Below, in pieces: positions 9,069 to 51,790 of a stretch of 64,000 nucleotides of DNA. A model generated the notes under the pieces. That model ran no database searches, had not been told where the DNA came from, and saw only the letters and a list, made by a program, of their open reading frames with translations. The stretch is from positions 33,795 through 97,794 of IMG/VR virus record IMGVR_UViG_3300036942_000180. The stretch is one strand, 5' to 3'. Position numbers and translations under genes: made by a program. This stretch comes from a virus. Position 1 is the stretch's first letter; every line of letters begins with the position of its first letter.

Positions 9069-9071
9069 ATA

Positions 9072-9419: not shown

Positions 9420-9450
9420 ATACTATTCCTCCTTTTATTTTTATTCAAAA

Positions 9451-9467
9451 TAATAATATATATTTGA
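9451..9467 (-). promoter_or_regulatory. Early-type promoter motif
   Basis: TCAAATATATATTATTA upstream of 9419. Confidence 0.55.
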
Positions 9468-9593
9468 CTCTATTTTTATAATTTGTAGAAGACCTGTCAA
9501 ACCCTCTTTTTTATTTATTTAATTTAAATGAGCAGAGAATGGGATTTTAATGACTCTATCCACTTCTCTGCTCTATATTAAGGAGATGATACC

Positions 9594-12500
9594 TTATTCT
9601 TCGTCTTCTTCGATTTCAACTTCCACTTCGACGAATTCTCCTGTGTCTTCATCTTCTTTGTAGTACACTGTCTCTTCTCCACTGTTATCTATCCATAAAT
9701 CGTTTTCTTCATCGTACTCCAAGTTCTTCTGCTGACTCAATACCTTCGGTTCAGGGATCAAGTTTTCTAATTCTTCCTTAGCTAACTTGTTGAATTGCTC
9801 TCTGAATTCTTTATCTTCGTCATATTTTTCCTTTATTTCGTTCATCCTAAAGCTACTTTCATAGCCATCTAAACTTTTCCAAGCACTGCCCGAAATTCTC
9901 TTAGCATCATCAAGTAATAGATAGTTAGATAGAATATTATCATAACCATTAACTTGATCAAAAACACTATTGAAAGTGACTCCTGCGGCAGTTGACCTAG
10001 ATTTAATAAATTTACCTTCGATTTCAAATCCTTTGACGTAGAACTTCTTATCTGGTTTTAATTTTGATCCTGCTTCAAGTTTGATTAAATAGTTGCTTAG
10101 ATATAATGGAGCTTTTCCACCTGGGACATTTTCCGTTTATATTCATATAGATTCGCTACTATCCATACAGTTCTCTTATGAACTTCTACATATTTCTATA
10201 TAGACTAGACTATATCTTTTTCAAGACTTTTTCGAATACCAATAGCTTGTATTCTACTCCCTTTCGGGATAGTCGTTGAACTTTATATATTATATTATTC
10301 CAAATAATTTTAATATTTTCTTTAACTTTCCATATCTATAATATTTGTATTTTATTCTAAATATTTTATAATTATTTTTAATAGCTTTTTTAGATTTTTT
10401 ATAATCAATTTCTTTTCTTCTTTTTAAATCTTTATCAGTCATGCTCCATTTTTTCTTATCATGTTGTTCTCCATCAAATTCAATTAATATATTTTTATTT
10501 TTTATTAAAAAGTCGTAAGGTTTATTTGATAGAAAATTATCATTTGGAATTACAAACTGATGCTTGTACTTTATATTATATTCATCTAAAATTTCTATTA
10601 TTTTCTTTTCACCTTTAGATATAGTAATAGAGCAATGTGGACATCTATTTTTATTATCTACAAAATCATTATAAGTAGTTGTAAATTTATTATTACATTT
10701 CAAATGTTTAAGAATAATTTTAGTCTTATTGTTTTTATATTCTCCCTTTTTAACTTTAATAAACTCATAATTATTATTACTTTCTTTTCTTATAATAGAT
10801 TTTATATTATTTTTAATCCACATCTTTTTACCCATTGTATTATTTTCATTACACACTGGACATAATTCTTGATTTGATTCATTAATTGTTTGAGGTAAAC
10901 ATTCAAAGTTAGTACCACAATCTTTATGAATTAAATTAATTGATTTTTTACTACTATCATAATTAGATGAAATTATATAATTATCAGGTATATTTCTTTT
11001 TAATTTATTAAATGCTTTTTTTGATCTTTCTTTTAATCTACATTCTGGACATCTATTTCCATTACTAAGAAAATTATTAGGTTTTATTTTCCATATATGT
11101 CCACATATCATATGTTTACATCTAATTTCTGTAGAACTTCCATCATACTCATCTAAAAAAAAATATTCATCTTTAACTTTATCATAAACATCTTGTTGAA
11201 ACTCTTTATTAGTCTTTTTTCTTGGCATTCTAATCGCTTCCTTTAATAAAAAGGAATAATATAATATATTTTAGCTGCTGATTGCCCATTGTAACATCTA
11301 TAAGATTTTTAAGCATATCACGTTTACTAGTTAAGTTACGTTGTAGCTCTTATAGCTTTAGGGGTTTCCAGCAATTAAATCTTTTTATACAGAACTAAAG
11401 TTAATCCTGTTTCAAATAGTTAATTTCAGCCTTAGTTTTATTAAATCCAATTTCAATTTTCTTTGTGATGTGATTGACAACTAATAGGATTATATTAGCA
11501 TCATTCAAAAATGAAGGGATTCTTTTAAAGATTGAAGTGTTTACTTTTGCCACGGCTGAAGCACTCATACCCCCTGATAGCTCTTCCTCCTCCTCTATAT
11601 TTTGAGGACTCATTACAGCAAGACTGTCCAGTATAACAACTGTAGGTGGAAGAACTGTAATTGGTTGTCCTTCATCATCCACTTTCCCAGTATCTAACTC
11701 TAATTTTTCTCTATTCTTTATCTTGAGCTTACTTAAGGACTTGATGCCTTTGTAGAAAGTTTCGGCGTAAATATCACTCTTCAATAAAATATATTTATCT
11801 TTAATCTTCTTAGAAGGCCACTCTGATAATGATTGAATTCTATTCTTAGTTGTAGCTCTCTATAGTGATAGGTAAGCCTTTGATATTATCTCCAGCTTTT
11901 CCCCCACTTCACACTGTACGTGAGACTTTCACCTCATACAGCGTTCTAACATGTTTTAATATTCCTTATTTAACTCCACAATATTTCCTACTTAATTTTT
12001 CTCTTTGTGCTTTCAATCTTAGTTTATTCAATCTGTTGAACTTTCTTCTACCCAACCCAATTTTCTTGACTATTTTAGTAACTGTAGGTTTATTACCATG
12101 TATTAAACGATGCTCAAGTTTAGATACAATAATAAGGTTATGATATTCATCAGTGCCATCAAATTCTTTAGGTAGTTTGTGATGAATTTCAAAATTACCA
12201 GATTGAATATTTTCATTAGTAATCTTTGTCTTACCTTTTTGCTGTATATATAATCCAGGTAGATAACTGTATATGAGGTTATTAAATTTAATATTTTTCT
12301 TCATAACCTTAAGTATCCAACTACTACACCTCTTAGTATATACATTATTTCTAAACCCAAGTTTCTTTAAGTCTTTCTCATCATACACATTAATATTAGG
12401 TTTCCTCTGTATAAGTCTCTTTTGATTTACTCTGTATATAGGTATCATAGGATTTTCAGGTCTAATATAGAAGTATTTCACCTTATCCTTACCTTTCAAA

Positions 12501-14909: not shown

Positions 14910-15031
14910 TTCAAATCATCTCCTTATTTATGATGTCTTAATAAAATACTGTATGAAATTGTTTCACTCGATTTTTACAAAAAAAAATCCCTAACCAATT
15001 TTTGAGGTTAAGGATTAATTTATTAATTGAA

Positions 15032-15979
15032 TTATTCAACTTTATAGTGCCAAGTATCAATGAATGTTTGAGTGAGGTCTTGATAATCAAAAATGTTCTG
15101 CCAATTAACGCTAGTTTCATACTCTTCGATAAATGTTTCAGAAAGGACTTGATACCTAGAAATAAGATCCCAATTAACTTCAGTATCATGAGTTCTAATG
15201 AAGTCCTCTGAAAGAGTTTGATATTGCGAAACAAGATTCCAATCTAGTTTATCAATATTATTCTCCATCTCTGCTTCTGTCAGTGATACGTACTTACACT
15301 GATAATTCCAGAAGGTATCATTCTGGTAAAATTCTACTTTATCCAAGTTGAGCTTGTAATCATATTCATCCACAAAATCCATATCTAATGATTGGTATCT
15401 GGAAATCAGTTCCCAATTTAGATTACTTTCATAATCCCTCATGAACTGGTTGGATAGGTTTTGCTTGGATGAAACAGCATCCCAGTCTAAATTGCTAGAA
15501 TTCTCCCTCATGAAATCTTCAGTCAAAAATTGATATATGCACACAGAGAACCAATCTAAGTTTTGAAGATTGTTCCTTAGAAATTCCATTGAAAATACTT
15601 TATTTTTAATAGCTTTCTCCATCTTTAATTTTCCCTGCTCAATCTGTTCTTGAAGGATGTCTTCGGGAACGTCTTGCCCTTCAACCAACCTTTCTGCGTT
15701 GAATTTTTCCAAGTTATCCCTGATGTATTGTTCTGATATCTCCTGTGTCTTAGCTACTAAGTTAGCACCTACTTCATCTATGCTTTCTTCAACTAAAATA
15801 GGTGGTATATTAGTCTTATTTATGAACACCCTCTTCAGATCCATTTCATCCTTATTTTCTCTAAAGAGAGCTATTTTCTCTTCTTCAGTAAGTACCTGAC
15901 TATCAAATATGAAGTCTTCCAACTTCTCCATCCCACTCAATATGAAATGTATCTTGAGCATCTTAGTCAACTCTGACAT
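15032..15979 (-). CDS. Tryptophan-repeat protein
   Basis: Repeated roughly 22-aa units L(D/N)WxxxSxYQxLSExFI. Confidence 0.7.
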   Translation of the reverse strand: MSELTKMLKIHFILSGMEKLEDFIFDSQVLTEEEKIALFRENKDEMDLKRVFINKTNIPPILVEESIDEVGANLVAKTQEISEQYIRDNLEKFNAERLVEGQDVPEDILQEQIEQGKLKMEKAIKNKVFSMEFLRNNLQNLDWFSVCIYQFLTEDFMRENSSNLDWDAVSSKQNLSNQFMRDYESNLNWELISRYQSLDMDFVDEYDYKLNLDKVEFYQNDTFWNYQCKYVSLTEAEMENNIDKLDWNLVSQYQTLSEDFIRTHDTEVNWDLISRYQVLSETFIEEYETSVNWQNIFDYQDLTQTFIDTWHYKVE

Positions 15980-16002
15980 TAAAATTTCCCCCTCAATATA
16001 TT

Positions 16003-16575
16003 TTATTTCATAGTTAATAATATTTCTTTATGTTTCTTTTCTGCATTTACTAAATTTCTAAATATATAAGATACGCTTGGGTCATTTGTATTCATATGAA
16101 TATGAGTATACAATTTAATAGCTTCATTTTCCTTATCAATAGAATGGTCGATAAATTCATCCATCTCGAACGGACCAGTAAATTCTATCTCCTCTTCTAG
16201 CTCTTCGAATTCATCTTCACTCATCTCTATTAAGTCCGCTATCAATTCACCATGTTCTTCTTCATGATGACTAACTCTTCTTAAAATAGCAATATTTCTA
16301 AGTTCATTTCTTTCCTTACATTCTTCCAGCATCGCTTCATATCTAACAGTATCTTCTATTTCCATTCTAATAGCTTTTTCTAATTTTTCTTTCATATCGT
16401 CTGTAATAGAAATTGAAGTAACTTTCTCCCATAAATCAGGATCCTTCATCTCAGTACCTTTGCTTCCACAGTAAGGACAAGTATCAGGTCTTTCTTCACC
16501 TAGATAAACATGATTACATACTTGACATCTATAAATATTCTATTTACTATTCTTCACTTCTTCGTCTAGGAACAT
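16003..16575 (-). CDS. Rubredoxin-like plus ferritin-like (rubrerythrin-type) protein with in-frame TAG at codon 12
   Basis: RBS GAAAGGAG, ATG at 16575, MFLDEEVKNSK*NIYRCQVCNH...CPYCG in frame with ORF 16003-16449 carrying EEEH/EKKH diiron motifs. Confidence 0.7.
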
Positions 16576-16601
16576 ATAAAATCTCCTTTCTTTTTATTAA
16601 T

Positions 16602-16613
16602 TATTACTTTGTT
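16602..16613 (-). promoter_or_regulatory. Late-type promoter AACA-N6-TA
   Basis: AACA-AAGTAA-TA; one of 12 copies. Confidence 0.6.
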
Positions 16614-16629
16614 ACAACACATTAAAAAT

Positions 16630-16674
16630 AAAAAAAAAATAGACTGAGATTTTATTTAAAATATCTCAGTCTAT
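16630..16674 (-). terminator. Intrinsic terminator
   Basis: ATAGACTGAGAT/ATCTCAGTCTAT stem plus long T-tract. Confidence 0.75.
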
Positions 16675-16689
16675 ATTATTAAATTTTAA

Positions 16690-17100
16690 TTATACTTCTA
16701 ATAACTGATATCCTTCTTTCTTATGTAAATCATCTATAGCAGTTATCAGATGAAATTTGCTTTCTTCAAACCTCATTATTATAGTGATGTTAAAATCACT
16801 ACTATATAAGTGAAATTTCTCATTTAATTTTATCTCGCAATCAAGTTCTTCATCGATGAAATGCTTAATCATAACCTTTACTTTCTTTAGAGATATCACT
16901 CGATTGTACATTCTATAATCGAAATGGAAAGAATTATAGAAGTTATAGAATCCGATTTTGATATTTTCTCTAAATCTCCGACTATATTCTTCTTGAGGTC
17001 TAAGTCTTCTCTTTCTTAGACCTCTCATTCCCTTAATCTTTACTAAATATCCATTACTATTATTTAACTTTTCTACCTTTTCAAGAATTCTTTCTTCCAT
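16690..17100 (-). CDS. Hypothetical protein
   Basis: 136-aa ORF with AGGAGG RBS. Confidence 0.65.
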   Translation of the reverse strand: MEERILEKVEKLNNSNGYLVKIKGMRGLRKRRLRPQEEYSRRFRENIKIGFYNFYNSFHFDYRMYNRVISLKKVKVMIKHFIDEELDCEIKLNEKFHLYSSDFNITIIMRFEESKFHLITAIDDLHKKEGYQLLEV

Positions 17101-17121
17101 TTTAATATCCTCCTTTTTAAG

Positions 17122-17421
17122 TTATTTAACTCTTACTTCTTGCAACTCAGTAGGGATATAAAGAGTTTGCCCTACTGTTAATGATTTACTTTGTAAATCA
17201 TTATATTTTACAATATAACTTATAAGAGTATGACCATCATATGAATCTCTATTTTTAATAATAGAGATGAAATCCCATAAACTATCTCCTCTTTCTACAG
17301 TAACTTCAGTTTCATATACATGAGTCAGTTCATAAGTTTCATCCATATATATTTGACTGATTAAAAACCCAGCAGTAATTCCTAAAACTAATATTAAAAT
17401 AATTAAATAACCTTTTTTCAT
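17122..17421 (-). CDS. TM plus LysM protein, YneA-like
   Basis: N-terminal TM; VTVERGDSLW...N...LTVGQTLYIP; 99 aa. Confidence 0.75.
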   Translation of the reverse strand: MKKGYLIILILVLGITAGFLISQIYMDETYELTHVYETEVTVERGDSLWDFISIIKNRDSYDGHTLISYIVKYNDLQSKSLTVGQTLYIPTELQEVRVK

Positions 17422-17558
17422 AATAAATACCTCCTAGTATTTTTAATAATAATTAAAGTCTAGTCAAATTATCATCCTCTGAAGGTTCTCTTTCTTCAGA
17501 AGGATCTACCACAATCTCATAATCATTCATTAAATCACCTCCTTGTTTCTATTCATTA

Positions 17559-17575
17559 TAATAATATAGGTTTAA
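17559..17575 (-). promoter_or_regulatory. Early-type promoter motif
   Basis: TTAAACCTATATTATTA. Confidence 0.55.
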
Positions 17576-17599
17576 GTATTTGACACTTACGGTTTTAAT

Positions 17600-17640
17600 A
17601 AAAAAAAAATAACCCATAGATAAATTAATATCTATGGGTA
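17600..17640 (-). terminator. Intrinsic terminator
   Basis: ACCCATAGATA/TATCTATGGGT stem plus T-tract. Confidence 0.75.
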
Positions 17641-17651
17641 TTATTATTAAA

Positions 17652-18239
17652 TTATAATTGACTTGTAGCTTCATCTTCATATCCTTGTTCTATTTTTTGT
17701 TGTTCTTCTTTGTATTCTTTTGGATAATATTCAATCATTACATCGGGAGTAATACTTGATCCAACCATTCCAAAATAAACTTTAATATCTTCGTTATCCC
17801 ACATGTACATTACTCCTACATGACCCATTTGTAAGGCTTCTTTAAACATTCCTGGTTGATCTTTATAAGTTTCATTATTCCATACTATGCCATAACTTCC
17901 ATCACTAGGATCCCCATATAAAGAATTTAATCGATCTGGCATATTTTTGTATATTTCAATATAATCCATTCCAGACAAATTTCTTTCCATAAGAATATAT
18001 CTAGCTAGTGAAAGTTTATTATCATAGAAAAAGTAACCAACAGCATAACTATTACCAGCGATATTAATTCCAGTATAAAATAATAAATTACTCTCTTCTT
18101 CATATAAACTAGCTGATTCATTTTCCTTTACTTCTTCTTTAGTCATACCCCAGTTTACATTTCTGAAATCTTGACCTAAAGCAGTAAAACTAATTCCTAT
18201 TACCAAGATAAATACTAATAAAACTGTTAATTTTTTCAT
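17652..18239 (-). CDS. Secreted or membrane protein
   Basis: Signal peptide MKKLTVLLVFILVIGISFTALG then DFRNVNWGM. Confidence 0.7.
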   Translation of the reverse strand: MKKLTVLLVFILVIGISFTALGQDFRNVNWGMTKEEVKENESASLYEEESNLLFYTGINIAGNSYAVGYFFYDNKLSLARYILMERNLSGMDYIEIYKNMPDRLNSLYGDPSDGSYGIVWNNETYKDQPGMFKEALQMGHVGVMYMWDNEDIKVYFGMVGSSITPDVMIEYYPKEYKEEQQKIEQGYEDEATSQL

Positions 18240-18497
18240 TAATGATCCTCCTAATTAATTTTTAATTATAAAAATTCTATACCATTTTGATGTAAAATAA
18301 CTTCTTTATTAGAAACATCTAAATGATTTTCTTCATCTAAAAATATATCTAACCACTCATCAGTTTCTAAATTCTTAACTGCAACGCCCCAAGGAAATTC
18401 AATCACTCCAAACTTATCTTTTTCTTTTTCTTCTTTATAATCTTCTAAACTAACTATTTTATTATTAATAAAATATCACTCCTTTCTCTATTCATTA

Positions 18498-18514
18498 TAA
18501 TAATATAGATTTAT
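18498..18514 (-). promoter_or_regulatory. Early-type promoter motif
   Basis: ATAAATCTATATTATTA. Confidence 0.5.
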
Positions 18515-18523
18515 AATTAAAGT

Positions 18524-18556
18524 AAAAACAGATAAGGAAATTAATCCTTATCTGTT
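18524..18556 (-). terminator. Intrinsic terminator
   Basis: AACAGATAAGGA/TCCTTATCTGTT, loop AATTAA. Confidence 0.7.
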
Positions 18557-18717
18557 ATTGTAGTTATTCGTCCTCATCTAATTTATCTTCTTCCTTCACT
18601 TCAATTTCAGCTTGTTGCTTAATGCCAAACGCACCGAGTCCATTATCTTCAATGATAACTTGCTCTTTTTCTTCTTTCTTTTTCTTATCTTTTTCAGTCA
18701 TATCTTATCATCCTTTC

Positions 18718-19170
18718 TTAATCATTAATAGGATTATTAATAAAATTGTTATATCTTAAAAAATCTTTAGTAGCGTCTGAAATTTGATTCAATTTTTTTA
18801 TCTCTTTTATAGTAAACCATCTAATTTCATCATGCTTATGAGGTTCCTTATTAATTAAATTACCTTTATAATTTATTATATTATATAAGAAACTTCTTAC
18901 TTTTATTACTTTGTTCATTCGTTTGTACTTCCTTGTTTCAAGAGATACCAAATCGTAATTCAATAAACTAATATTAAGTTCTTCAAACGCTTCTTTTCTC
19001 AATGTTTCTTCTTTAGTTTCACCATACTCTACTTTACCTACTGGAATAGTCCAAGTATCAAGTTTATTGTGCTTCATCAATAGATATTTATCTTCTTCAT
19101 TTCTTATTATCATGGCTATTCCATCGTGATCTCTCAAATCTGTCTTATTGAATTCAATACCTTCAACCAA
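18718..19170 (-). CDS. NUDIX hydrolase
   Basis: GKVEYGETKEETLRKEAFEE Nudix box. Confidence 0.85.
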   Translation of the reverse strand: MVEGIEFNKTDLRDHDGIAMIIRNEEDKYLLMKHNKLDTWTIPVGKVEYGETKEETLRKEAFEELNISLLNYDLVSLETRKYKRMNKVIKVRSFLYNIINYKGNLINKEPHKHDEIRWFTIKEIKKLNQISDATKDFLRYNNFINNPIND

Positions 19171-19190
19171 TCACAGCACTCCTTTAATCT

Positions 19191-19865
19191 CTATTCATTC
19201 AGATGTATTATGTGATCGTGTCCACAATTAGGACAAGATTCTCCATCATTTTCCCATTTTCTTTTCTTGCCACATAATTGACATTTTCCATATATTTTAG
19301 TTGATTCATTTAAACTTTTATTTATCAATTGAATGTCTAATAAATCTTTATCTCTTCCAAATATCTCTTTCCATTTTTTAATAGATTCTAGTGTTTCTAC
19401 TTGAAGCCCTTCTACTGTTTCAGTTTCGTAATCATACACTTCAGGAGCCCAAGAATCAATATTAAAACATTCTATATCATTATTTATTTCTATTCTTTTC
19501 CCATTAAATTTAGCAGATTCTATTTTATACTTTTTAGACAATTCATTAAAAAAATAATCATTCTCTACCACTAAATCAATATCATTAGTATAATCTTTGA
19601 CTCCATGTAATACTAATGCAGATCCAGAACCTACAAAAAATTTATCTCTTGGAATGTCAATTTCGTTATTAATCATTTTAATAATATTTTCTTTATTTAT
19701 TCCTGCATTATTAGTAGATTCATTCAATAATTCTAATTCTTTTTTATTAATATCCATCTCTTCAGCCAGTAAGTTCATATCATCAACTGAAGATATCTTT
19801 AATTCTTTTATTATTTCCTTTACTTTTTCTTTATTATTCATAAGCAACAACCTTTCAAAAATCAA
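19191..19865 (-). CDS. Nucleotidyltransferase-fold protein with C-terminal Zn ribbon
   Basis: GSGSALVLHG...TNDIDLVV; CQLC...CPNC. Confidence 0.65.
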   Translation of the reverse strand: MIFERLLLMNNKEKVKEIIKELKISSVDDMNLLAEEMDINKKELELLNESTNNAGINKENIIKMINNEIDIPRDKFFVGSGSALVLHGVKDYTNDIDLVVENDYFFNELSKKYKIESAKFNGKRIEINNDIECFNIDSWAPEVYDYETETVEGLQVETLESIKKWKEIFGRDKDLLDIQLINKSLNESTKIYGKCQLCGKKRKWENDGESCPNCGHDHIIHLNE

Positions 19866-19868
19866 TAT

Positions 19869-22463
19869 TTAATTCTTATTAGTTCTTTCATGACCTATTT
19901 CTCTTTTTTCTTTGTTTTTAAGAGTTCTAGGTAAAGCTAATCCACCTTGAAGGAGATCAGTATTGATTCCTGCAGCAGTCATATAAGCATCTATAACGTT
20001 CAATGTTTGCTTATCTTCAATATCGCTTTCTAATTCTCCTAGATTGGCGTAGCCTTCAAGAGATATTTTTTGCTCCATTTGCATTTTTTGCTTAGAGTCA
20101 TCAGATCGTGGTCCAAGGGCTTCTTTAAGGAACTTATCTGCACCCATAGCCACTAGACTTTCCATCTCTGGCTTGGTGATCGTTTATATTCATATAGATT
20201 CGCTAATATCTATACAGTTCTCTTATGAACTTCTATATGTTTCCATATAGACTAGACTATATCTTCACTTCTTTCGAAGTGTCTCCTGTTTCGAGTATCA
20301 ATAACTTATACTCTACTCCCTTTCGAGATAGTCGTTGAACATCTTATATTTAATTCAATATTTTTTCTTCTAGTATTTTTTCTATATTTTCTTTTTCCCA
20401 ATAAGGAATTCTAATTAATTTTATATTATTTTCATTACAAAAAATATTTTTTATTTCATCATTTTCTTTTTGTTTTTTAAATCTTTCTATTCCACCAAAA
20501 TAATCTATAGGTTGATAATGTTGTATTCCATCATATTCTAATAAAATAAAATCATCATCTGTTTCTATTTTAAAATCAAAAGGAAGATAGTTAATATTTT
20601 TACATTTTTCAATAACAAATTCATTTTCAAATTCTATATTTTTATCTTTCAACCAATTATGAATTATTTTTTCTCCTTTAGAAGCCTTACATTTAGGACA
20701 TCTAGTTCCTTCTAAAAAATGTAATGGTCGAACTGAATATTCATATCCACATTCTTCTATATCGTGTTTCATTATTACATTAGTATTATTATTAATATAT
20801 TTACTTAATAATATATAATCATTTCCTTCTAATTCATATATTTCCTGTTTAAATTCTTCAGTAGTTTTTCTTTCATTTCCAAAACACTTTGGACAACGTT
20901 GTCCATTATCTAAAAAATTATGTGGATTCATTTTAAATTCATGTCCACAACTTTCTATATTATGTTTAATTAATATTTTATCTTTATTATCTTTACCATA
21001 TTCAGTTAATGGAATATATCTATTACCAACTAATTTTTTCATTTCCCATTTAAATTGTTTATTTGATTTACCTTGTTTAAATTTTATATTATATTTTTTA
21101 ATTTTATTATAAATAGTTTTATAACTACAATTAAAATATTTACTGCATTCTTTTCTATTTAAAAATTTATCTTCTATTAATTCTTTTAGCTTTTTCCCAT
21201 TATTCTTATCAATATCTTTGTAACTTCTTTCTTCATTCAATTCTTCTTCTGTTATTAAATCTAACATATTTTACCTCCGATAGTAATTTATTTCCGATTT
21301 ATATAATAAATAGGAAACGAGACTCGGATAATCTCGCTTTCGGGTATATTGCCCTATCCTATTAAATATTTGTTTTATATTAAATTAATTAATAAAATGA
21401 TGCTGATTGCCCATTGTAATATCTATAAGGATTTTTAAGCATATCACGCTTACTGATTAAGTTACGTTGTAGCTCTTATAGCTTTAGGGTGTTCCAGCAA
21501 TTAAGGAGATTCTAACATGTATTTTAAATTAATACATGTCACGCTATTAAATAACGTGCAGCACGACTATCGCCAGTCACTTGATGAAACTTTTCATTGC
21601 GTTGCATATTATCTTGGGTATAAGTATTCTTTTTCATTAATTTTCATATAGAATCGTTAATTCTATATCTGATTCAGCTATACGTTTCCATATAGATAAG
21701 ACTATATCTTCACTAATTAAAGTGCTTCCTATTTCTACTATAAACTATAGTATACTATTAGTCGTTGGATGTTCTTATTATTAAAATATAATAAGATTCA
21801 CTGCTAATTACCATTTAAGGTTTCAAGCAATTAAGGAAATTTTACTTGAGCAAAATAGTTCACTCAATACCTGTTGTAATCTTTTCAAATGTAAATCGTG
21901 TTTTTTATATAGAATCATTAATTCTATACCATATAGCTATACGTTTCCATATAGACAAGATTATATCTTTACTAATCAATATAGCATTCTCTGTTTCTAT
22001 TGGATTTCCAATATACTAATAATCGTTGGATGTTCTTATTATTAAAATATAATAAGATTCACTGCTTATTATCTAATCAAAGACTTTCAAGCAATTAAGA
22101 GAATTTTAATTGGGCTATTTACGTGATTAACCCAACTGGAACTTTAGTTCTACTTCTAATCTCATTCCCGTCTTTATCAGGGTAATAGATATATTCTTCT
22201 AGCTCTATATCAAGTATGTCTGCCGCTTTCTTAACGCCTTCCATATCAAGTTCTTTTTCAAATGGCTCCGTCTCAAGATAGAAATTCTCACTATCATCTT
22301 CCAGAAAATCACTCAACCATTCGTCAAACTCCTTATTAGTGCTCATCTCTTCAAACTTATCCTTATATTTATCCTTATTATCACCTGAAGGGTCTAGTGT
22401 TTTCATAACATCATATACTAGGTTTTCTATTCTTTCTCTCTTATCAGTCGAAATTCCTGCCAT
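19869..22463 (-). CDS. Phage RNA polymerase beta C-terminal fragment (probably virion RNAP, phiKZ gp149-like); 4 exons, 253 aa
   Basis: Exons 22463-22130, 21896-21862, 21634-21554, 20180-19869 join in frame (762 nt): VPVGYLHLKRLQQVLS|KKN...QVTGDSRAAR|ITKPEMESLVAMGA...GPRSDD. Confidence 0.82.
20350..21267 (-). CDS. Intron-encoded endonuclease (HTH, Zn-ribbon repeats, EDxHD/Vsr-like nuclease)
   Basis: CGHEF...RCPKC x2; LPFDF...LEYDGIQH. Confidence 0.8.
   Translation of the reverse strand: MLDLITEEELNEERSYKDIDKNNGKKLKELIEDKFLNRKECSKYFNCSYKTIYNKIKKYNIKFKQGKSNKQFKWEMKKLVGNRYIPLTEYGKDNKDKILIKHNIESCGHEFKMNPHNFLDNGQRCPKCFGNERKTTEEFKQEIYELEGNDYILLSKYINNNTNVIMKHDIEECGYEYSVRPLHFLEGTRCPKCKASKGEKIIHNWLKDKNIEFENEFVIEKCKNINYLPFDFKIETDDDFILLEYDGIQHYQPIDYFGGIERFKKQKENDEIKNIFCNENNIKLIRIPYWEKENIEKILEEKILN
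21363..21374 (-). promoter_or_regulatory. Late-type promoter inside intron, upstream of endonuclease ORF
   Basis: AACA-AATATT-TA. Confidence 0.55.
21635..21861 (-). mobile_element. Group I intron, ORF-less (227 nt)
   Basis: P1 UUGAGU/GCUCAA; conserved core; terminal G. Confidence 0.9.
21897..22129 (-). mobile_element. Group I intron, ORF-less (233 nt)
   Basis: P1 UUGGGU/GCCCAA; P7 shows compensatory change (ACGAUUA / UAUAAUC). Confidence 0.9.
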
Positions 22464-26816: not shown

Positions 26817-27476
26817 TTATTTATTTTCCATCTTATTTTCCATGAGTAATTTTTTATACTTAACTCCCACTCTTTCGTTTTCTGATTTATCAAATGTTTC
26901 TAAGAAACCAAATATATCCAAGTATTCTCCATTTATATATCTTCTTATATGAGTTCCATCAGAATAATTAAGATTTACTTCTTCTTCAGTTTCTATCATA
27001 TCGCAATAAGGATTGTCACCATAAAGTTTATCTAAATCATGAAAATAAACTTCCCTATCTATATAATCATTAGTATTTCTTATTAACCTATTGATTGACA
27101 AACCATGGGAGTTATATATAGCCTTTTCTAGTGAATCCCTAATGCTATCAAAAAGATCCTTCTTTTCCTCGCTCCATAGTGACTCTAAAGTTGTATAAAA
27201 ACTTACACTAAATTCTTTTCTATATATAGTATTGATAAATTTATCATGTTCTAAAAATTTTTGAAGAGTGTATGATAAATAATCTTGGTTATCAATTAAC
27301 TTATTTCTTTCTTTTTCATTCAATTTGTCTAAATAAACCATCCATTGCTCCATAAAATATTTAAAACCTTGATTCTCTTGATGCATATCAAATTCAAATA
27401 TAGAATCAATATATATTTTATAATACTTTAGAAAATTATCATCCTGATTTTCTAAATTGATTTCCATTTCTTTCAT
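26817..27476 (-). CDS. Hypothetical protein with C-terminal motif; paralog of 27661-28335
   Basis: Alignable by eye throughout; ends KKLLMENKMENK. Confidence 0.7.
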   Translation of the reverse strand: MKEMEINLENQDDNFLKYYKIYIDSIFEFDMHQENQGFKYFMEQWMVYLDKLNEKERNKLIDNQDYLSYTLQKFLEHDKFINTIYRKEFSVSFYTTLESLWSEEKKDLFDSIRDSLEKAIYNSHGLSINRLIRNTNDYIDREVYFHDLDKLYGDNPYCDMIETEEEVNLNYSDGTHIRRYINGEYLDIFGFLETFDKSENERVGVKYKKLLMENKMENK

Positions 27477-27660: not shown

Positions 27661-28335
27661 TTAATTCTCCTTTATTTTGTTTTCCATATTTTCTTTCTTG
27701 TAAGCAATACCCACTCTTACCTCGTCAGATTCTTCAAACGCTTTAACTATTCCAAAGACATCGTAGTAGCTCCCATCCACCAATATCTTTTTGTAACTTT
27801 CATCCCTCCAACCCAAATTGACTATCTCCTCTTCATAATCACCTTCGTAGAAAGGATTTTTAACTATATATTGATAGTCGTAATAAGTTTCTTTTCCATT
27901 AAAATATACTTGAGTGTTCCTAGCTATTCTTTTAGTAGCTGATAAGTGCATATTATAAAGCGACTTCTCCATATTATTTCTAATGACTTTTAATAGTTCC
28001 ATCCTATTATTTATTAATGATTCCATTTCTTCAGGGTAACTTTCATTATACCAACCTAAGCCATATCTTATCATTGATATAAACTCCCTATTCTCCATGA
28101 TCTTCGACATAGCCCAACTTAAGTAATCTGGATTATTTAATAATTTTTTTACTTGCTCATCAGTAATTCTATTTAAATATGCAATCATATGAGTAAGAAA
28201 ATAGTCTGTTGCTTTATTATGTCTATTTCTATTGTCAATACACATTGCATCTATATATGCTTTAAATGATTTTAAGAAAGCATCATTAGAATTTAATTTA
28301 AACTCCATTTCTTTTCTTTTTCTTTTACTAGGCAT
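27661..28335 (-). CDS. Hypothetical protein with C-terminal motif; paralog of 26817-27476
   Basis: Ends KKENMENKIKEN. Confidence 0.7.
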   Translation of the reverse strand: MPSKRKRKEMEFKLNSNDAFLKSFKAYIDAMCIDNRNRHNKATDYFLTHMIAYLNRITDEQVKKLLNNPDYLSWAMSKIMENREFISMIRYGLGWYNESYPEEMESLINNRMELLKVIRNNMEKSLYNMHLSATKRIARNTQVYFNGKETYYDYQYIVKNPFYEGDYEEEIVNLGWRDESYKKILVDGSYYDVFGIVKAFEESDEVRVGIAYKKENMENKIKEN

Positions 28336-28408
28336 TATAAATTCCTCCTTAATATTCTAAAAAATTAAAAGAGATACTAGGAATTAACCCAGTATCTCAA
28401 TAATTTGC

Positions 28409-28651
28409 TTAAGCTAAGAGTTCACAACTCGATTCATTCCAATCTGTAGTTTCTCCCTTTTTAGTTCCATTCAATCTTTCTACTCTAAATCGAAGAGTTT
28501 CTCCATCATTTCCATAATAGAATCCATCCACTCTTCCAACGTCGCCTTTTTCTGGATTGGGTAAGTTGTCGTTAATAACGACTGCACCATCTAAATAATT
28601 ATGATTAGGTTCACCATTGATTAACCTTTGTAAATTTCTACCTCTTGGCAT
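28409..28651 (-). CDS. Hypothetical protein (possible SH3-like barrel)
   Basis: 80-aa ORF with RBS. Confidence 0.6.
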   Translation of the reverse strand: MPRGRNLQRLINGEPNHNYLDGAVVINDNLPNPEKGDVGRVDGFYYGNDGETLRFRVERLNGTKKGETTDWNESSCELLA

Positions 28652-28720: not shown

Positions 28721-30196
28721 CTACATATTCTCACTCATTTTAAGTTCCTTTACAACTCCATGAGGTTTTTCAACTGATAGGTTTTCTTTATTCTCAGTTA
28801 ATACCCAAATGATGTGATAGTTCTTATTTCTTAGATATTCATCGGGTATGCTACTCTCACCCCAACCATCTGTAAAATAAACTAATACATCACACTTAGG
28901 TTCTTTCTCCTCTTTAAGGTGCTTGAATACTGGAGTAAAAGCTGTTCCTCCTCTACCTGAAATACTCTTAACGTCAGATGATCTTTCAATAGGATAAATT
29001 CTGTTAATTTGCATGTCACACTCAATTACATATAACTTATCATTAACAGAATTAAGTATATCCATGATTTCATTGAAAGCCCATTCAACTTCAGTTTGAC
29101 TCATTGAACCTGAAGTATCTATTGCTGCACATACTCTTACAGCTCTCTTCTTCATTCTACCAGGTAAATCATAACGATTACGCTGTCTTCTGTTTCTCCT
29201 GAGCATGGTCTTCCTGTAAGGAATTTTAAGAGACCCAAGCATTCTTTTTAATTCCTTTTGCCAACTGATTACTGGTTTTTTGTTCAACTTATGGATAGCT
29301 TCTTCCATACCACCAGGTAGTTTACCTCGTGATTTGTTTTGAGCCTGTTGTGTGATCTTTTTAGCTACGTCTTTAGCTAATGACTCATCGCCCTCTGCTT
29401 TAGATTCATCCCAAGCATCATGGTTAGCGATTCCTTGTTTCCTCTTCTCTTCTTCAGACATCTCATCACCTTTACCACCACCAGATTCACCTTGACCTTC
29501 TTGCTCTTCTCCTTCTTCTTCACCCATGCCAAATGATCCACTGCCACCAGCTACAGACTCAGGAGATTTATTTCCACCACCAGATCCAGAACCATCATGA
29601 TTCTGACCTCTGAGTTTATCCATCATTTCTTTAAGATCTTTATTGTTCTTCTCTTCTTCAGCTAGTTTTTTAATGTAATACTCAGAACTCTCTCTAGCGT
29701 CAAGATCCAAACCTTTCTTTCTGAATTCTTCAAGGTTCATTGCTTCTTTTGGTAGGTTATCAATATATTGATTGATGGCTAAATCCATTCCAACGTTAAC
29801 TGTAGTATGATCATATTGTTTATGAAGCTTTTTACCACGAACTGGATGGATATTAACTATATGATATAATTCGTGTTTGATAATAGCTTCTATCTCAGAT
29901 AAATTAAAATTGAATAGAAATAATGGATTAATCATAATATTATAATGACTACCTACTAAATTACAAGCAGCAGGTGCAGGTAATTGATAGGTAATCTTTC
30001 TTTTAATCTGCATTAGTAGATGAGCTAGAAAACTGTCATCTACTAATAGTTTAAATACAGTAAGTTCAAAGAACTCTTTAATTTGTCCTTTTAATTCTCT
30101 TTCATTTAATTCATTTATATCTTCAACTTCTTCCAACTTACTTTGTATTTCTTCATGAAGTTGTTTGATGTTCTTATTCGACATATTACTCATCAC
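28721..30196 (-). CDS. Metallopeptidase-like plus VWA domain protein (DUF2201-type), MoxR partner
   Basis: HELYH; G/S/E-rich linker; MIDAS DTSGS, GRGGT, YFTDG. Confidence 0.88.
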   Translation of the reverse strand: MMSNMSNKNIKQLHEEIQSKLEEVEDINELNERELKGQIKEFFELTVFKLLVDDSFLAHLLMQIKRKITYQLPAPAACNLVGSHYNIMINPLFLFNFNLSEIEAIIKHELYHIVNIHPVRGKKLHKQYDHTTVNVGMDLAINQYIDNLPKEAMNLEEFRKKGLDLDARESSEYYIKKLAEEEKNNKDLKEMMDKLRGQNHDGSGSGGGNKSPESVAGGSGSFGMGEEEGEEQEGQGESGGGKGDEMSEEEKRKQGIANHDAWDESKAEGDESLAKDVAKKITQQAQNKSRGKLPGGMEEAIHKLNKKPVISWQKELKRMLGSLKIPYRKTMLRRNRRQRNRYDLPGRMKKRAVRVCAAIDTSGSMSQTEVEWAFNEIMDILNSVNDKLYVIECDMQINRIYPIERSSDVKSISGRGGTAFTPVFKHLKEEKEPKCDVLVYFTDGWGESSIPDEYLRNKNYHIIWVLTENKENLSVEKPHGVVKELKMSENM

Positions 30197-30404
30197 CTTC
30201 CTCTTTCTTTAATTTCTCTTCCATAAGATGTTTCTTATAAAGTTTATATAAATTCTCTGATGCTTCTTTATCTAAATTGATTTCTTTGGTAGGAGAGCTT
30301 TCACCATAATTTATATCTGCACATTTGATGATTTTCATCCTACCTTCTGAATCAACTTCTAAATAAGTATCTGGGAGCGTAGAAATTTTGGTAATTTCTA
30401 TCAT
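30186..30404 (-). CDS. 72-aa protein with C-terminal motif between MoxR and VWA genes
   Basis: Overlaps both neighbours; ends KKHLMEEKLKKEEGDE. Confidence 0.65.
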   Translation of the reverse strand: MIEITKISTLPDTYLEVDSEGRMKIIKCADINYGESSPTKEINLDKEASENLYKLYKKHLMEEKLKKEEGDE

Positions 30405-31841
30405 TAAAACCCTTCTGTTCTCGCATCAGCTTCATGGAAGAGGTCAAGGAATTTTTCTTCATTGAAGAGCTTTTCATAAATACTATCGGTATAGTTTCTC
30501 ATGATATCAGAGATAACTCCAACCATGCTGTCTTTAGGGATAGCATTTAGATATTCATAGAAAGCGTCCTTCATCCATGATTCCATTCTAGGAGCTTTAT
30601 CAAGATGTCTCACAACTCTATTGGATAGTACCGAAATCCTAGGCATTGTCTCTTCGTAGAGCTTATCTTTAATTTCTTCTGTTAATCCTTTCTTATTGAT
30701 AATCTCTTCAACTTTAATCATTGGGTTTTGCTTTTCCTCAATGAATTGTCTAAATGCAACAGAAGCAGATGATCCTACTGTACCTTTGATTACTGGATAT
30801 ATTAAGTGTTCTGGATTGCCTAGATCTTCATTGGATCTAATGACATCAGAAACAGCTTCCCATGATCTAGGAGTAGCCTTAACATCTTCATCAGTATTAG
30901 GTACGTGGAGCAGTTCAGGGTTTGTAGCGATGAAGTTAATGACATCTTCGTGAACCATTGTCATTTCTTCTCCCTCTACTTTCTTCTTTCTGTTAGCCCA
31001 TTTTAACCATTCTTCAACTTCAGGTTCCATTTCAAGCCAAATGAATCTATCTTTAAGAGCATCATTCATTACGTTTACCTGATAGTCTCCATATTCAGAG
31101 TTTTCAGGGTTACCTGCAGCAATGATCATTACATCGTCAGGTAGTTCAGTTTCATTGATTTTCTTATCTAGTATGAGCTGCATTAGTTCTTGCTGAGTCT
31201 GAATATCACTACGGTTTATTTCGTCGACAAAGAGGAGAGTTGCATATCCTTCCTTATGGTTATCCCATATCTCCTTCATTTTAGTATGCATTGTATATGT
31301 GTTTATGACTGTACCATCTTCTGTTTCTTTCGGTACGGGAATTCCGCCTCGTGTTATTCTATACTTTCGTATAGCACAGACTATATCTTATTCCTTCAGC
31401 ATTATCTGGTAAGGATCTCGGCACTTGGAATGATGCATTTCATCATCATTCTACTCTACTAACTATATTATATTAAAATATAATATGTTTTCGATAGTCG
31501 TTGCACCTTCCCTAATGGGCTTGGCACAGGATCGGCATATGATAATTTCTAATTATCTTTTAGCTTTCCCTGTTAGCATGATTAAAAATCATACACCCTG
31601 CAATTACAGGTTCACCGAGTTTTACTATCCGATATTTCTACCGGAAGAGAACCTAGATTGAATTAAGCTCTCCTTCTTTAATTAAAGATCCAAATAATGT
31701 TACCAGTCTGACATTTTCATACTTCTCACAAAATTCTTTACCAATGTTAGATTTACCAATACCAGCATGTCCAACTAAATATGGGGTTCTTCCACCTAAT
31801 ACACTGATCTCAATTGCCTGTAATGTGTCTTGAAAATTCAT
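30404..31841 (-). CDS. MoxR-family AAA+ ATPase; 2 exons, 373 aa
   Basis: Exons 31841-31666 and 31349-30404; GHAGIGKS, EGEL|GGIP, LFVDEINR, AAGN, ALKDRF, TPRSW. Confidence 0.88.
31350..31665 (-). mobile_element. Group I intron, ORF-less (316 nt), different lineage from the others
   Basis: P1 GGAGAGCU/GGUUCUCU; UGCAACGACUA and AAGAUAUAGUC; ends AACACG. Confidence 0.85.
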
Positions 31842-31902
31842 TATTAAACCACTCCTTTTAGTTTTTAATATAATTTAGTATAATAACTTCATTTAATCAT
31901 CA

Positions 31903-31919
31903 AAATAATATATATTTAA
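31903..31919 (-). promoter_or_regulatory. Early-type promoter motif upstream of MoxR-VWA operon
   Basis: TTAAATATATATTATTT. Confidence 0.55.
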
Positions 31920-32024
31920 ATTATAAGTTAAATAAAACAATTCCCCTCTCATTTATTTAATTCTCAAAAAAATACAAAATCCCTACCTAAAATTCAAATT
32001 TTTTAAGTAGGGATATCAACACTT

Positions 32025-51690: not shown

Positions 51691-51763
51691 TCATTTTTCC
51701 CCCTTTCTGTTAATCCCCTCTAATTAATTTATTCGAAATAAAATTTATTTTTCCTACTCAAAA

Positions 51764-51780: not shown

Positions 51781-51790
51781 TTTTGTATTT

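What the first reader, a model, noticed from the sequence alone, without database searches (positions are those of the whole stretch)
28721..31919. MoxR AAA+ / peptidase-VWA pair with a tag-bearing mini-protein between them: candidate reader of the C-terminal tag
Seen: early motif, then MoxR, then a 72-aa ORF ending KKHLMEEKL (overlapping both neighbours), then HExxH-VWA. Tagged genes flank the operon on both sides (26817, 27661, 32025, 32853, 34592). Established: MoxR-VWA pairs are chaperone-like remodellers whose MIDAS site binds an acidic residue of the client (e.g. CbbQ/CbbO). Inference: the near-invariant Glu of the tag could complete the MIDAS site, making tagged proteins clients or adaptors that bring host targets to the machine.
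Basis: inference. Interest (0 to 1): 0.75.

Follow-up and report, generated by a model that had tools for sequence, protein, structure and literature searches.

The report
Phage MoxR–VWA operon with tagged mini-protein
An early operon of an uncultured AR9-like giant phage encodes a known ATP-driven remodelling pair (MoxR ATPase plus peptidase-VWA protein), here with a self-splicing intron and an extra 72-residue protein carrying the phage's shared "address tag"; whether the pair reads that tag is still unproven, though no test here refuted it.

Summary
On the minus strand an exact AR9-type early promoter (31917-31898) drives a MoxR AAA+ gene, a 72-aa ORF and a zincin(HExxH)-VWA(MIDAS) gene. 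An 80-aa ORF follows, and terminators bracket the unit. P1 covariation in a relative and an intron-less natural allele both support it.

The mini-ORF is a real gene. It sits in the same slot in four related contigs, with dN/dS 0.3-0.5. Its most conserved part is the tag YKKxLMExKLK. AR9, BpSp and S6 lack it.

The "tag reader" idea is neither shown nor refuted. In my 15-genome survey, broad terminal tags occur in 4 of 9 phages with the pair and 0 of 6 without it (p about 0.09, kinship uncorrected). One of the four is an unrelated Vibrio phage with a ...PExFI tail.

Against the idea: five phages with the pair lack a broad tag repertoire (phiR1-37, PA5oct and AD45-P1 have none; AR9 and LPJP1 only small families). 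The MIDAS is invariant while tags differ between lineages. The S6 and BpSp tags have no invariant acidic residue. A phage GroEL co-occurs with tags at least as well.

Earlier notes of this scan describe the same tag-plus-MoxR/VWA layout on other, unrelated DNA.

The parts
31979..32014 (-). Terminator-like hairpin ending the upstream (tagged-gene) unit
   Evidence: 14-bp stem followed by a T run. It lies just before the early promoter.
31898..31917 (-). AR9-type early (virion-RNAP) promoter with predicted start G31898
   Evidence: Exact AAATATATATTAT-N6-G. The consensus comes from PMC5312081. The AR9 orthologue g028 has a mapped early TSS.
31666..31841 (-). MoxR AAA+ exon 1 (Walker A GHAGIGKS)
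   Evidence: The exon ends in U31666, which pairs with G of the intron guide sequence.
31350..31665 (-). Group I intron, 316 nt, no ORF
   Evidence: Rfam RF00028, 55.7 bits (gathering score 50), E 2e-13, in a local scan. P1 is AGGAGAGCU/GGUUCUCUU with a U.G pair. Relative L038 keeps the intron, with compensatory C-G to U-A changes in P1 and in the next hairpin. A contig of run X2 joins 31666 to 31345 with 4 replaced letters and gives the same peptide, KEGELGGIPVP.
30404..31349 (-). MoxR AAA+ exon 2 (Walker B LLFVDE, sensor-1-like AAGN); spliced product 373 aa
   Evidence: Pfam AAA_5/AAA_3 and PHROG 1297 at 1.9e-49. The spliced protein is 41% identical to AR9 gp028 and to BpSp gp083 over 371-372 aligned residues.
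30186..30404 (-). 72-aa mini-protein gene: small beta unit plus a C-terminal helix carrying the tag YKKHLMEEKLK. The last residues (KEEGDE) are encoded by the Shine-Dalgarno site of the next gene.
   Evidence: Homologues of 43-61% identity sit in the same slot in L037, L038 and L043; P0122 is a further homologue whose context could not be fetched. dN/dS is 0.29-0.49, against 0.10-0.17 for the neighbours. AF2 gives pLDDT 62, strands 13-17, 23-27 and 40-43, and helix 46-69. Only 2 clusters exist among 1.84 billion representatives.
28721..30184 (-). Zincin peptidase (HELYH) - acidic/Gly-rich linker - VWA domain with an intact MIDAS (D360, S362, S364, T418, D443)
   Evidence: Pfam PF13203 and PF09967, PHROG 1314. 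AF2 pLDDT is 74, and the VWA part matches integrin/CMG2 I-domains. The conserved start is MSNKNIK.
28409..28651 (-). 80-aa ORF, last gene of the unit, no family match
   Evidence: No ORF of 45 aa or more occupies the corresponding position in relative L037.
28371..28398 (-). Terminator-like hairpin closing the unit
   Evidence: 11-bp stem followed by a T run.

Best explanation
This is the early MoxR-class AAA+ ATPase / zincin-peptidase-VWA operon that AR9/PBS1-like jumbo phages share (AR9 g028-g029). It sits in an uncultured relative found in oil-field and shale-gas metagenomes.

Shown:
- The promoter is an exact AR9 early (virion RNA polymerase) promoter, and terminators bracket the unit.
- The ATPase gene is interrupted between Walker A and Walker B by a mobile, ORF-less group I intron. 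Splicing must remove it to give a 373-aa protein.
- The partner protein keeps HExxH and a complete MIDAS.
- A lineage-specific 72-aa gene has been inserted between the two and is translationally coupled to both. It is under purifying selection, and its best-conserved part is the phage's portable KKxxMExKL helix.

Inferred, by analogy with NorQD and CbbQO: the VWA domain plugs into the MoxR hexamer, and ATP hydrolysis turns or pulls it. The MIDAS and the N-terminal peptidase domain grip and remodel, or cut, a client that supplies a carboxylate.

Most likely role of the mini-protein (inferred): it is a small stoichiometric partner of this machine. Either it is an accessory subunit that gives the untagged machine the same address helix as about 35 other early proteins, or it is a tag-bearing regulator or pseudo-client. 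That the machine is the general reader of the tag is possible but not shown.
For: Anatomy.

Orthology and early timing: AR9 g028/g029 lie adjacent, behind an annotated early promoter. They have a mapped early TSS and RNA present at 5 min.

Intron: Rfam match, P1 covariation and an intron-less allele.

Mini-gene: conserved slot, reading frame kept through 3n indels, dN/dS below 1, tag residues 56-66 invariant. There is one base between its stop and the VWA start, and one shared base with the MoxR stop.

Mechanism by analogy: PMC4660213 and PMC13036017.

The pair is conserved with intact motifs in five AR9-group/phiR1-37 phages. It lies next to its partner ATPase in most of about 80 metagenome loci.
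Against: No client is known for any phage DUF2201-type pair. AR9, BpSp and S6 work without a mini-gene, so it is not a core subunit. The AF2 model of the mini-protein has low confidence. A tagged ORF could simply have been inserted here by chance, since 23% of ORFs carry the tag. Iyer et al. 2021 propose a late, virion-assembly role for this pair. Weak virion mass-spectrometry signals exist for the ATPase in DC4 (one peptide) and in PA5oct.
Confidence: 0.55

Rival explanations
1. First reader's model. The MoxR/peptidase-VWA machine is the reader of the terminal tags. It docks tagged early proteins, either by the tag's Glu completing the MIDAS, or by the helix binding the MoxR ring or the peptidase groove, and uses them as clients or adaptors. 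The mini-protein would be a built-in adaptor, decoy or regulator.
For: Broad tags occur only in pair-bearing genomes in my survey (4/9 against 0/6). Presence of the pair was scored with the A1 profile. An unrelated Vibrio phage, phiKT1024, has 85 proteins ending ...PExFI (Glu 89%), and tagged genes flank both its VWA and its MoxR gene. MoxR and VWA are 2 of only 6 proteins that it shares with both S6 and BpSp. Glu is invariant in this phage's tag (34 E + 1 D of 35). A tag-bearing gene is translationally coupled inside the operon in four related contigs. In S6, BpSp and AR9 the pair also lies among tagged genes. One variant contig has a 1-nt deletion that would fuse the mini-ORF in frame to the VWA ORF (unverified). 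Other agents' notes report the same layout on other DNA; these are leads only.
Against: Fisher p is about 0.09 before any correction for kinship. Own, S6 and BpSp are one clade, so there are only two independent origins. The pair is present without a broad tag repertoire in phiR1-37, PA5oct and AD45-P1 (none) and in AR9 and LPJP1 (one small family each). Sister taxa on the VWA tree are discordant. 45 other pair-bearing loci show no tag cluster, although the positive controls do. The MIDAS loops are invariant while the tags differ completely between lineages. S6 and BpSp tags lack any invariant acidic position. Some tags are N-terminal. GroEL co-occurs at least as well. There are no binding data.
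Confidence: 0.22
2. The tags are read by something else: a phage-encoded GroEL-type chaperonin, a host factor, or each other (self-association of amphipathic helices). In that case the MoxR-VWA operon merely lies in the early region where tagged genes abound. The mini-gene is then one more tagged accessory gene that landed between two conserved genes.
For: A Cpn60/GroEL protein is one of the 6 proteins shared by phiKT1024, S6 and BpSp. It is absent from all 6 pair-less genomes and also from tagless PA5oct and AD45-P1. The tag is an amphipathic helix with hydrophobic positions at -5, -2/-1, 0 and +4. 23% of ORFs are tagged, and flanking on both sides is expected for 12-28% of loci. The mini-gene is absent from AR9, BpSp and S6.
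Against: GroEL is also present in tagless phiR1-37 and in AR9. No GroEL gene lies on the 98-kb contig, which is only 38% complete, so this says little. The mini-gene keeps its slot and its coupling in all four relatives despite about 50% sequence divergence. Only 3 of 41 ORFs of 100 aa or fewer carry the tag.
Confidence: 0.3
3. The pair is a virion-assembly chaperone/protease, as proposed for 'group 2.2' jumbo phages and as shown for the MoxR-VWA pair of Acidianus two-tailed virus. It would have nothing to do with early proteins.
For: This is the proposal of Iyer et al. 2021. The MoxR-like ATPase was detected in purified DC4 particles (1 peptide) and is marked ESI-MS/MS in PA5oct.
Against: The promoter here is an exact early promoter. 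AR9 g028/g029 have a mapped early TSS and RNA at 5 min. The DC4 authors themselves call for confirmation.
Confidence: 0.12
4. The 72-aa ORF is a chance ORF or a decaying remnant.
For: It is short, has no family match, and its structure model has low confidence.
Against: It is kept open in four diverged relatives, with in-frame indels and dN/dS of 0.29-0.49. It has 25 invariant residues, 10 of them in the tag.
Confidence: 0.03

Closest known systems
MoxR AAA+ ATPase + metallopeptidase-vWA pair of jumbo phages (Iyer et al. 2021, PMC7824862; AR9 g028/g029; PHROG 1297/1314)
   Same: The two proteins, their order and their adjacency are the same. Identity is 41% for MoxR and 33-36% for VWA. HExxH and the MIDAS are present, and the unit has an early promoter as in AR9.
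   Different: Here the ATPase gene carries a group I intron. A conserved 72-aa tag-bearing gene sits between the two genes, and an 80-aa ORF follows. The published proposal is virion assembly; the expression signals here are early.
NorQ-NorD and CbbQ-CbbO (bacterial MoxR-VWA remodellers)
   Same: A MoxR-class ATPase is encoded next to a VWA protein with a perfect MIDAS. In those systems the VWA domain docks in the ring, and the MIDAS plus a client carboxylate are needed for function.
   Different: The partner here has an N-terminal zincin peptidase domain in place of the NorD/CbbO N-domains. No client is known. Whether a VWA 'finger' exists here was not examined.
Acidianus two-tailed virus p618 (MoxR) / p892 (VWA)
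   Same: It is a virus-encoded MoxR-VWA pair, cited as the precedent for a viral chaperone role.
   Different: It is an archaeal virus, has no peptidase domain, acts late and outside the cell on tail growth, and has no tag repertoire.
Rea1/Midasin MIDAS binding Rsa4/Ytm1
   Same: An AAA+ ring plus a MIDAS domain pulls on several different clients through one conserved acidic residue presented by a shared module. This rests on my own knowledge; the system is cited.
   Different: It is eukaryotic, and the shared module is a folded UBL domain rather than a 10-residue helix. It is an analogy only.
ORF-less group I introns of AR9-like and other Firmicute phages
   Same: The intron matches RF00028, its 5' exon ends in U, it ends in G, and it sits in a conserved motif region of an essential-looking gene. 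The same window holds at least five more.
   Different: I did not find a description of an intron in a MoxR gene. The literature was not searched exhaustively for this.

Membership tests
MoxR-class AAA+ ATPase | Walker A and Walker B motifs in one polypeptide | tested here: met
   GHAGIGKS at residue 24 and LLFVDE at residue 97 of the spliced 373-aa product.
MoxR-class AAA+ ATPase | Profile match to AAA_5/AAA_3 (MoxR/dynein-related) | tested here: met
   Exon 2 alone scores 24.1 bits on AAA_5 (cut-off 22) and 24.1 bits on AAA_3, which is below that model's cut-off of 27. AR9 orthologue: AAA_5 30.3 bits. PHROG 1297: 1.9e-49. The spliced protein itself could not be handed to the profile tool.
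MoxR-class AAA+ ATPase | Encoded next to a VWA/MIDAS partner | tested here: met
MoxR-class AAA+ ATPase | Hexamer with ATPase activity stimulated by partner or client | not testable with these tools
   Needs purified proteins.
DUF2201-type zincin-VWA co-chaperone | Pfam PF13203 (N-terminal peptidase) plus PF09967 (VWA-like) above cut-off | tested here: met
   63.2 bits (cut-off 23.2) and 49.3 bits (cut-off 26.4).
DUF2201-type zincin-VWA co-chaperone | HExxH metal site | tested here: met
   HELYH is present. H108, H112 and H117 are invariant in 15 sequences. The Glu is replaced by Gln in 2 distant members.
DUF2201-type zincin-VWA co-chaperone | Complete MIDAS DxSxS...T...D on a VWA fold | tested here: met
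   D360, S362, S364, T418 and D443 are invariant. They are also conserved in AR9, BpSp, S6 and phiR1-37. Foldseek matches CMG2 and integrin I-domains at probability 1.0.
DUF2201-type zincin-VWA co-chaperone | Peptidase activity | not testable with these tools
   No solved relative was found by sequence.
Group I intron | Covariance-model match above the Rfam gathering score | tested here: met
   55.7 bits against 50 in a local scan. The whole-window scan with the default filters missed it.
Group I intron | 5' exon ends in U paired to G in P1; intron ends in G; splicing restores the reading frame | tested here: met
   U31666.G, G31350, junction KEGEL|GGIPVP aligned to AR9 KEGELTGMPIN. P1 shows a compensatory change in L038.
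Group I intron | Intron-less allele with the same exon junction | tested here: met
   A run X2 contig joins 31666 and 31345 with 4 replaced letters and gives the identical peptide. It is one contig with only 30 letters on the shorter side, so support is moderate.
Group I intron | Self-splicing | not testable with these tools
   No RNA data were available.
Portable KKxxMExKL terminal tag of this phage | Motif match near a protein end on an otherwise unrelated protein | tested here: met
   The mini-protein is a PSSM hit, with its tag 7 residues from the C-terminus. 35 tagged proteins fall into 26 BLAST-unrelated groups, and the mini-protein is a singleton.
Tag reader (functional claim for the pair) | Co-occurrence of tags with the pair across phages | tested here: inconclusive
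   4/9 against 0/6 genomes, p about 0.09, kin not independent, and five pair-bearing genomes without a broad tag repertoire.
Tag reader (functional claim for the pair) | Physical binding of the tag to the MIDAS or the ring | not testable with these tools
   No complex prediction is offered, and no chimeric sequences are allowed.

The most novel reading that the evidence does not exclude
Large phages of at least two unrelated groups label a quarter or more of their accessory proteins with a lineage-specific terminal peptide. The MoxR/peptidase-VWA machine would be the common hub that docks these labels, by the MIDAS, the ring or the peptidase groove. In this phage, a tag-bearing 72-aa protein is made in step with the machine as its built-in adaptor or regulator.
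Probability: 0.22. Interest if true: 0.85.

Novelty: new variant of a known kind. Interest (0 to 1): 0.58.

Why it matters
No client is known for the phage MoxR/peptidase-VWA pair, which more than a hundred large phages carry. No reader is known for the terminal tags that mark 23-35% of proteins in several large phages. If the two belong together, that would define a protein-addressing system in viruses and explain two unknowns at once.

This locus gives the cleanest handle for a test. It has one small tagged protein, co-translated with the machine, and an invariant Glu to mutate. Cultured relatives (S6, BpSp, AR9, phiKT1024) differ in tag load.

Independently of that, the locus adds a mobile group I intron in a MoxR gene, with both intron-plus and intron-minus alleles found in nature.

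Tried and rejected
The contexts of P0122/P0129 and of the 37-39% VWA relatives on 90-100 kb contigs could therefore not be fetched.
- No close relative exists in IMG/VR.
- No RNA holder was listed for the stretch, so splicing and expression could not be seen.
- The N-terminal part of the mini-protein has no homologue in AR9, S6, BpSp or 80 related loci. It has none among 1.84 billion representatives apart from its own two clusters; three weak hits are long repetitive proteins. No fused mini-VWA protein is on record.
- I asked whether the tagged families next to the pair are one conserved family. AR9 g030-g036 has relatives in BpSp and LPJP1. It shows no detectable relation to 26817/27661 here (hhalign probability 3%).
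- No solved structure is related by sequence to the DUF2201 protein. The fold search of the whole model reported only VWA matches, so the peptidase domain was not placed.
- I considered the tag as a nucleotide-level signal (RBS or promoter) and rejected it. Only the residues after the tag (KEEGDE and similar) are encoded by the next gene's Shine-Dalgarno site. The core shows conservative amino-acid replacements (M/L/I, K/R, L/M/V/I) and also occurs at N-termini.
- I considered the tag as a prohead-protease site (L/I-x-E). Only about half of the tags fit, and the genes are early. This was not pursued.
Full report
WHAT IS THERE

The window is bases 33795-97794 of a 97.8-kb IMG/VR virus contig, estimated 38% complete. 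It has 28% G+C, and nearly all genes lie on the minus strand. By protein similarity the nearest cultured phages are the uracil-DNA jumbo phages of Firmicutes: AR9/PBS1, BpSp, Listeria LPJP1 and the Staphylococcus S6/PALS2 group. Near-identical DNA lies in oil-field and shale-gas metagenomes from several studies.

TRANSCRIPTION UNIT

A terminator-like hairpin (32014-31979) ends the upstream gene. The sequence AAATATATATTAT-TTTGAT-G then follows (31917-31898). This is an exact copy of the experimentally defined AR9 early-promoter consensus, which the injected virion RNA polymerase reads. A second hairpin at 28398-28371 closes the unit.

The unit holds MoxR, a 72-aa ORF, the peptidase-VWA gene and an unassigned 80-aa ORF. 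In AR9 the orthologues g028/g029 lie behind an annotated early promoter. They have a mapped early start site and RNA present at 5 min.

THE ATPASE GENE IS SPLIT

Walker A lies in a 62-aa ORF and Walker B in a 295-aa ORF, about 360 nt apart.

- A local Rfam scan finds a group I intron between them: RF00028, 55.7 bits against a gathering score of 50. The whole-window scan missed it.
- Among all U...G splice combinations that keep the frame, the best fit to AR9 gp028 and BpSp gp083 removes 31665-31350 (316 nt). It gives KEGEL|GGIPVP, opposite AR9 KEGELTGMPIN.
- The 5' exon end AGGAGAGCU pairs with the intron's GGUUCUCUU, with the hallmark U.G pair at the splice site.
- In relative L038 (78% protein identity) the intron is retained. 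A C-G pair of P1 becomes U-A, and the next hairpin shows the same kind of double change.
- A contig of an independent shale-gas run joins 31666 to 31345 with four replaced letters. This is an intron-less allele that encodes exactly the same junction peptide. It rests on one contig with only 30 letters on the shorter side, so I rate it as moderate support. Even so, it coincides to the base with the predicted sites.
- The spliced product is 373 aa and 41% identical to AR9 gp028.

THE PARTNER PROTEIN

The partner matches Pfam DUF2201_N (putative metallopeptidase) and DUF2201 (VWA-like), and PHROG 1314.

In an alignment of 15 relatives at 32-84% identity, the following are invariant: H108, H112 and H117 of HELYHxxxxH, and the MIDAS residues D360, S362, S364, T418 and D443. 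AR9, BpSp, S6 and phiR1-37 keep the same motifs.

The AF2 model (pLDDT 74) has a helical N-domain, a disordered acidic/Gly-rich linker (residues 200-250) and a VWA domain. The VWA domain matches integrin and CMG2 I-domains. One natural variant has an in-frame 54-nt deletion in the linker.

Relatives begin at MSNKNIK. The true start is therefore most likely ATG30184, preceded by a strong Shine-Dalgarno site that also encodes the last residues of the mini-protein.

THE MINI-PROTEIN IS A REAL GENE

- Homologues of 70-78 aa (43-61% identity) exist in the related contigs L037, L038 and L043, and as P0122. In the three contigs whose DNA I could read, the gene lies between MoxR and VWA with the same start/stop coupling. 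P0122's context could not be fetched.
- Indels are multiples of three. dN/dS is 0.29-0.49, compared with 0.10-0.17 for the flanking genes.
- Ten of its 25 invariant residues lie in Y56-K66, which is the tag.
- AF2 (low confidence, pLDDT 62) gives three short strands and a helix at 46-69 that carries the tag.
- The N-terminal part has no detectable relative anywhere else.
- AR9, BpSp and S6 have no gene in this slot.

It is therefore a young, fast-evolving but selected addition to an old operon.

THE TAG

A PSSM built from the motif finds 35 tagged proteins among 152 ORFs of the contig (shuffles give 0-0.2). Twenty-eight are near the C-terminus, 6 near the N-terminus and 1 is internal. With the tag removed they fall into 26 BLAST-unrelated groups. 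K-K at positions -4/-3, M at 0, E at +1, K at +3 and L at +4 are nearly invariant; the Glu is E in 34 and D in 1 of 35. This agrees with an earlier report of this scan on the same genome, which I re-derived independently.

TESTING THE 'READER' IDEA

(a) The exact tag occurs only in the close relatives. It is absent from AR9, S6 and about 840 kb of other pair-bearing loci.

(b) Other phages have their own tags. As a measure I took the largest cluster of similar C-terminal 28-mers, with mid-protein segments as the control:

- Phages with the pair: own contig 44 (control 5); S6 94 (5), tag ...KKYLVKENFK-COOH; BpSp 62 (19), tag ...TLxKLxEL-COOH; Vibrio phage phiKT1024 85 (2), tag ...[YHF]PEx[FL][IV]-COOH; AR9 6; LPJP1 12; phiR1-37 10, which are acidic low-complexity tails only; PA5oct 5; AD45-P1 3.
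- Phages without the pair: phiKZ 3; SPO1 4; T4 3; KVP40 4; T5 6; phage K 6.

Presence of the pair was scored with the A1 profile. Broad tags thus occur in 4 of 9 pair-bearing genomes and 0 of 6 pair-less ones. The one-sided Fisher p is 0.09, and three of the four positives are kin.

(c) On a VWA tree the sister pairs BpSp/AR9 and phiKT1024/AD45-P1 are discordant for tags. Tags come and go while the pair stays.

(d) Of 45 further pair-bearing metagenome loci of 9-21 kb, none shows a tag cluster: 44 have a largest cluster of 3 or less, and the cluster of 5 in L103 also appears in the N-terminal and mid-protein controls, so those are paralogues. Same-sized windows in own, AR9, BpSp and S6 give 5-11.

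(e) The MIDAS loops are the same in all lineages, whatever their tag. No position of the S6 or BpSp tag is acidic in more than 32-37% of members. In those phages the tag ends exactly at the C-terminus, so the terminal carboxylate could substitute. That would not fit this phage, where 1-15 residues follow the tag or the tag is N-terminal.

(f) I made an unbiased phyletic comparison. Only six phiKT1024 proteins have BLAST homologues in both S6 and BpSp: GroEL/Cpn60, the peptidase-VWA protein, MoxR, gyrase B, tail sheath and ribonucleotide reductase. If one homologous phage-encoded reader serves both groups, it is among MoxR/VWA and GroEL. GroEL is absent from tagless PA5oct and AD45-P1, so its fit is at least as good.

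(g) Local clues: in S6, BpSp, AR9 and phiKT1024 the pair also lies among tagged genes. Tagged genes are so common, however, that flanking on both sides is expected for 12-28% of loci in this contig.

(h) One variant contig lacks a base at 30187, which would fuse the mini-ORF in frame to the VWA ORF. No such protein is on record, and I could not verify the contig.

COMPARISON WITH WHAT IS KNOWN

The pair itself is known. Iyer et al. 2021 described a MoxR/metallopeptidase-vWA pair in jumbo phages and proposed a virion-assembly role, by analogy with Acidianus two-tailed virus. Weak virion mass-spectrometry signals exist. The early promoter and the AR9 time course argue for an early function.

Mechanistic models come from two bacterial systems. 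In CbbQO the MIDAS plus one client carboxylate are needed. In the 2026 NorQD structures a VWA finger sits in the pore, the hydrophobic C-terminus lies on the post-sensor-1 loops, and the MIDAS is proposed to face the client. The NorQD work also offers a second possible docking site for a hydrophobic terminal peptide, on the ATPase ring rather than on the MIDAS.

Earlier notes of this scan report tag arrays around MoxR/VWA pairs on several unrelated genomes, including a Pro-Glu tail like the one I found in phiKT1024. I treat these as leads, not as evidence. My phiKT1024 result was obtained before I read them.

VERDICT

The anatomy is confirmed and refined: an intron, the true VWA start, the limits of the unit, and a conserved mini-gene. 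The locus is a new variant of a known phage module.

The proposal that the module reads the tag survives its own refutation test and gains one independent lineage. It remains circumstantial and has clear counter-indications. I put the odds that the pair handles tagged proteins at about 0.2-0.25. The specific Glu-MIDAS contact has lower odds.

Noticed in passing
window 31350-31665 and 31345/31666: Natural populations hold both intron-plus and intron-minus MoxR alleles. The intron-less contig (run X2) differs from the spliced form by synonymous changes in the first 4 exon-2 bases (AGGC against CGGG).
   Followed up: partly
window 30187: A run X2 contig lacks one base in the mini-ORF stop region (GAG TAA T ATG becomes GAG TAT ATG). 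This would fuse the mini-protein in frame to the peptidase-VWA protein. It rests on one contig and is unverified. No fused protein is on record.
   Followed up: partly
window 29481-29534: An in-frame 54-nt deletion variant lies in the acidic/Gly-rich linker between the peptidase and VWA domains (run X2). The linker is disordered in the model and varies in length among relatives.
   Followed up: no
Staphylococcus phage S6 (LC680885; loci L019-L032): About 94 of 268 ORFs end in a shared ...E(K/E)E(I/Y)KKY(L/I)VK(E/N)NFK-COOH tail. Several other proteins begin MKWIME. I found no description of either in the two Staphylococcus jumbo-phage papers I looked at.
   Followed up: partly
Bacillus phage BpSp (KT895374; loci L129-L141): About 62 of 305 ORFs end in ...(E/D)(K/R)(L/I)xT(L/I)xKLx(E/D)(L/I/V)-COOH, mostly in tandem arrays of 130-190-aa genes. 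The close relative AR9 has only one such family, g030-g036 (...RVRKYEAxxLLExL-COOH). That family flanks the MoxR-VWA pair in AR9, BpSp and LPJP1.
   Followed up: partly
Vibrio phage phiKT1024 (OM249648; loci L198-L207): 85 of 317 ORFs (median 107 aa) end in h(K/R)xx(Y/H/F)-P-E-x-(F/L)-(I/V)-COOH, with Pro at 86% and Glu at 89%. Tagged genes flank both the VWA gene (about 82 kb) and the separately located MoxR gene (about 128 kb).
   Followed up: partly
phiKT1024 51689-53269, with homologues in S6, BpSp, AR9, LPJP1 and phiR1-37: A phage-encoded GroEL/Cpn60 is one of only six proteins shared by the two unrelated tag-bearing phage groups. It is an alternative candidate for handling tagged proteins.
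   Followed up: partly
window 31495-31592: The intron core is about 75% identical at DNA level to unannotated or 'hypothetical' stretches of 57-59-kb Enterococcus faecalis phages (EF-P10, EF-P29, Toszka and others). Related unannotated introns probably lie there.
   Followed up: no
window 3686-22139: The Rfam gathering scan lists five more group I introns (at 3686-3882, 6546-6761, 7197-7434, 21678-21871 and 21937-22139). It also lists two group II intron hits: domains 1-4 at 14357-14568 and the RF00029 hit at 11862-11946. The MoxR intron was missed by that whole-window scan, so further introns may be hidden.
   Followed up: no
window 28409-28651: The 80-aa ORF at the end of the operon matches no family. 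No ORF of 45 aa or more lies at the same place in relative L037. G+C is locally higher (33%).
   Followed up: no
window 27661-28335: This protein carries the tag twice: near its N-terminus (KRKEMEFKL) and at its C-terminus (KKENMENKI). Its paralogue 26817-27476 keeps a degraded N-terminal copy (MKEMEINLEN).
   Followed up: no
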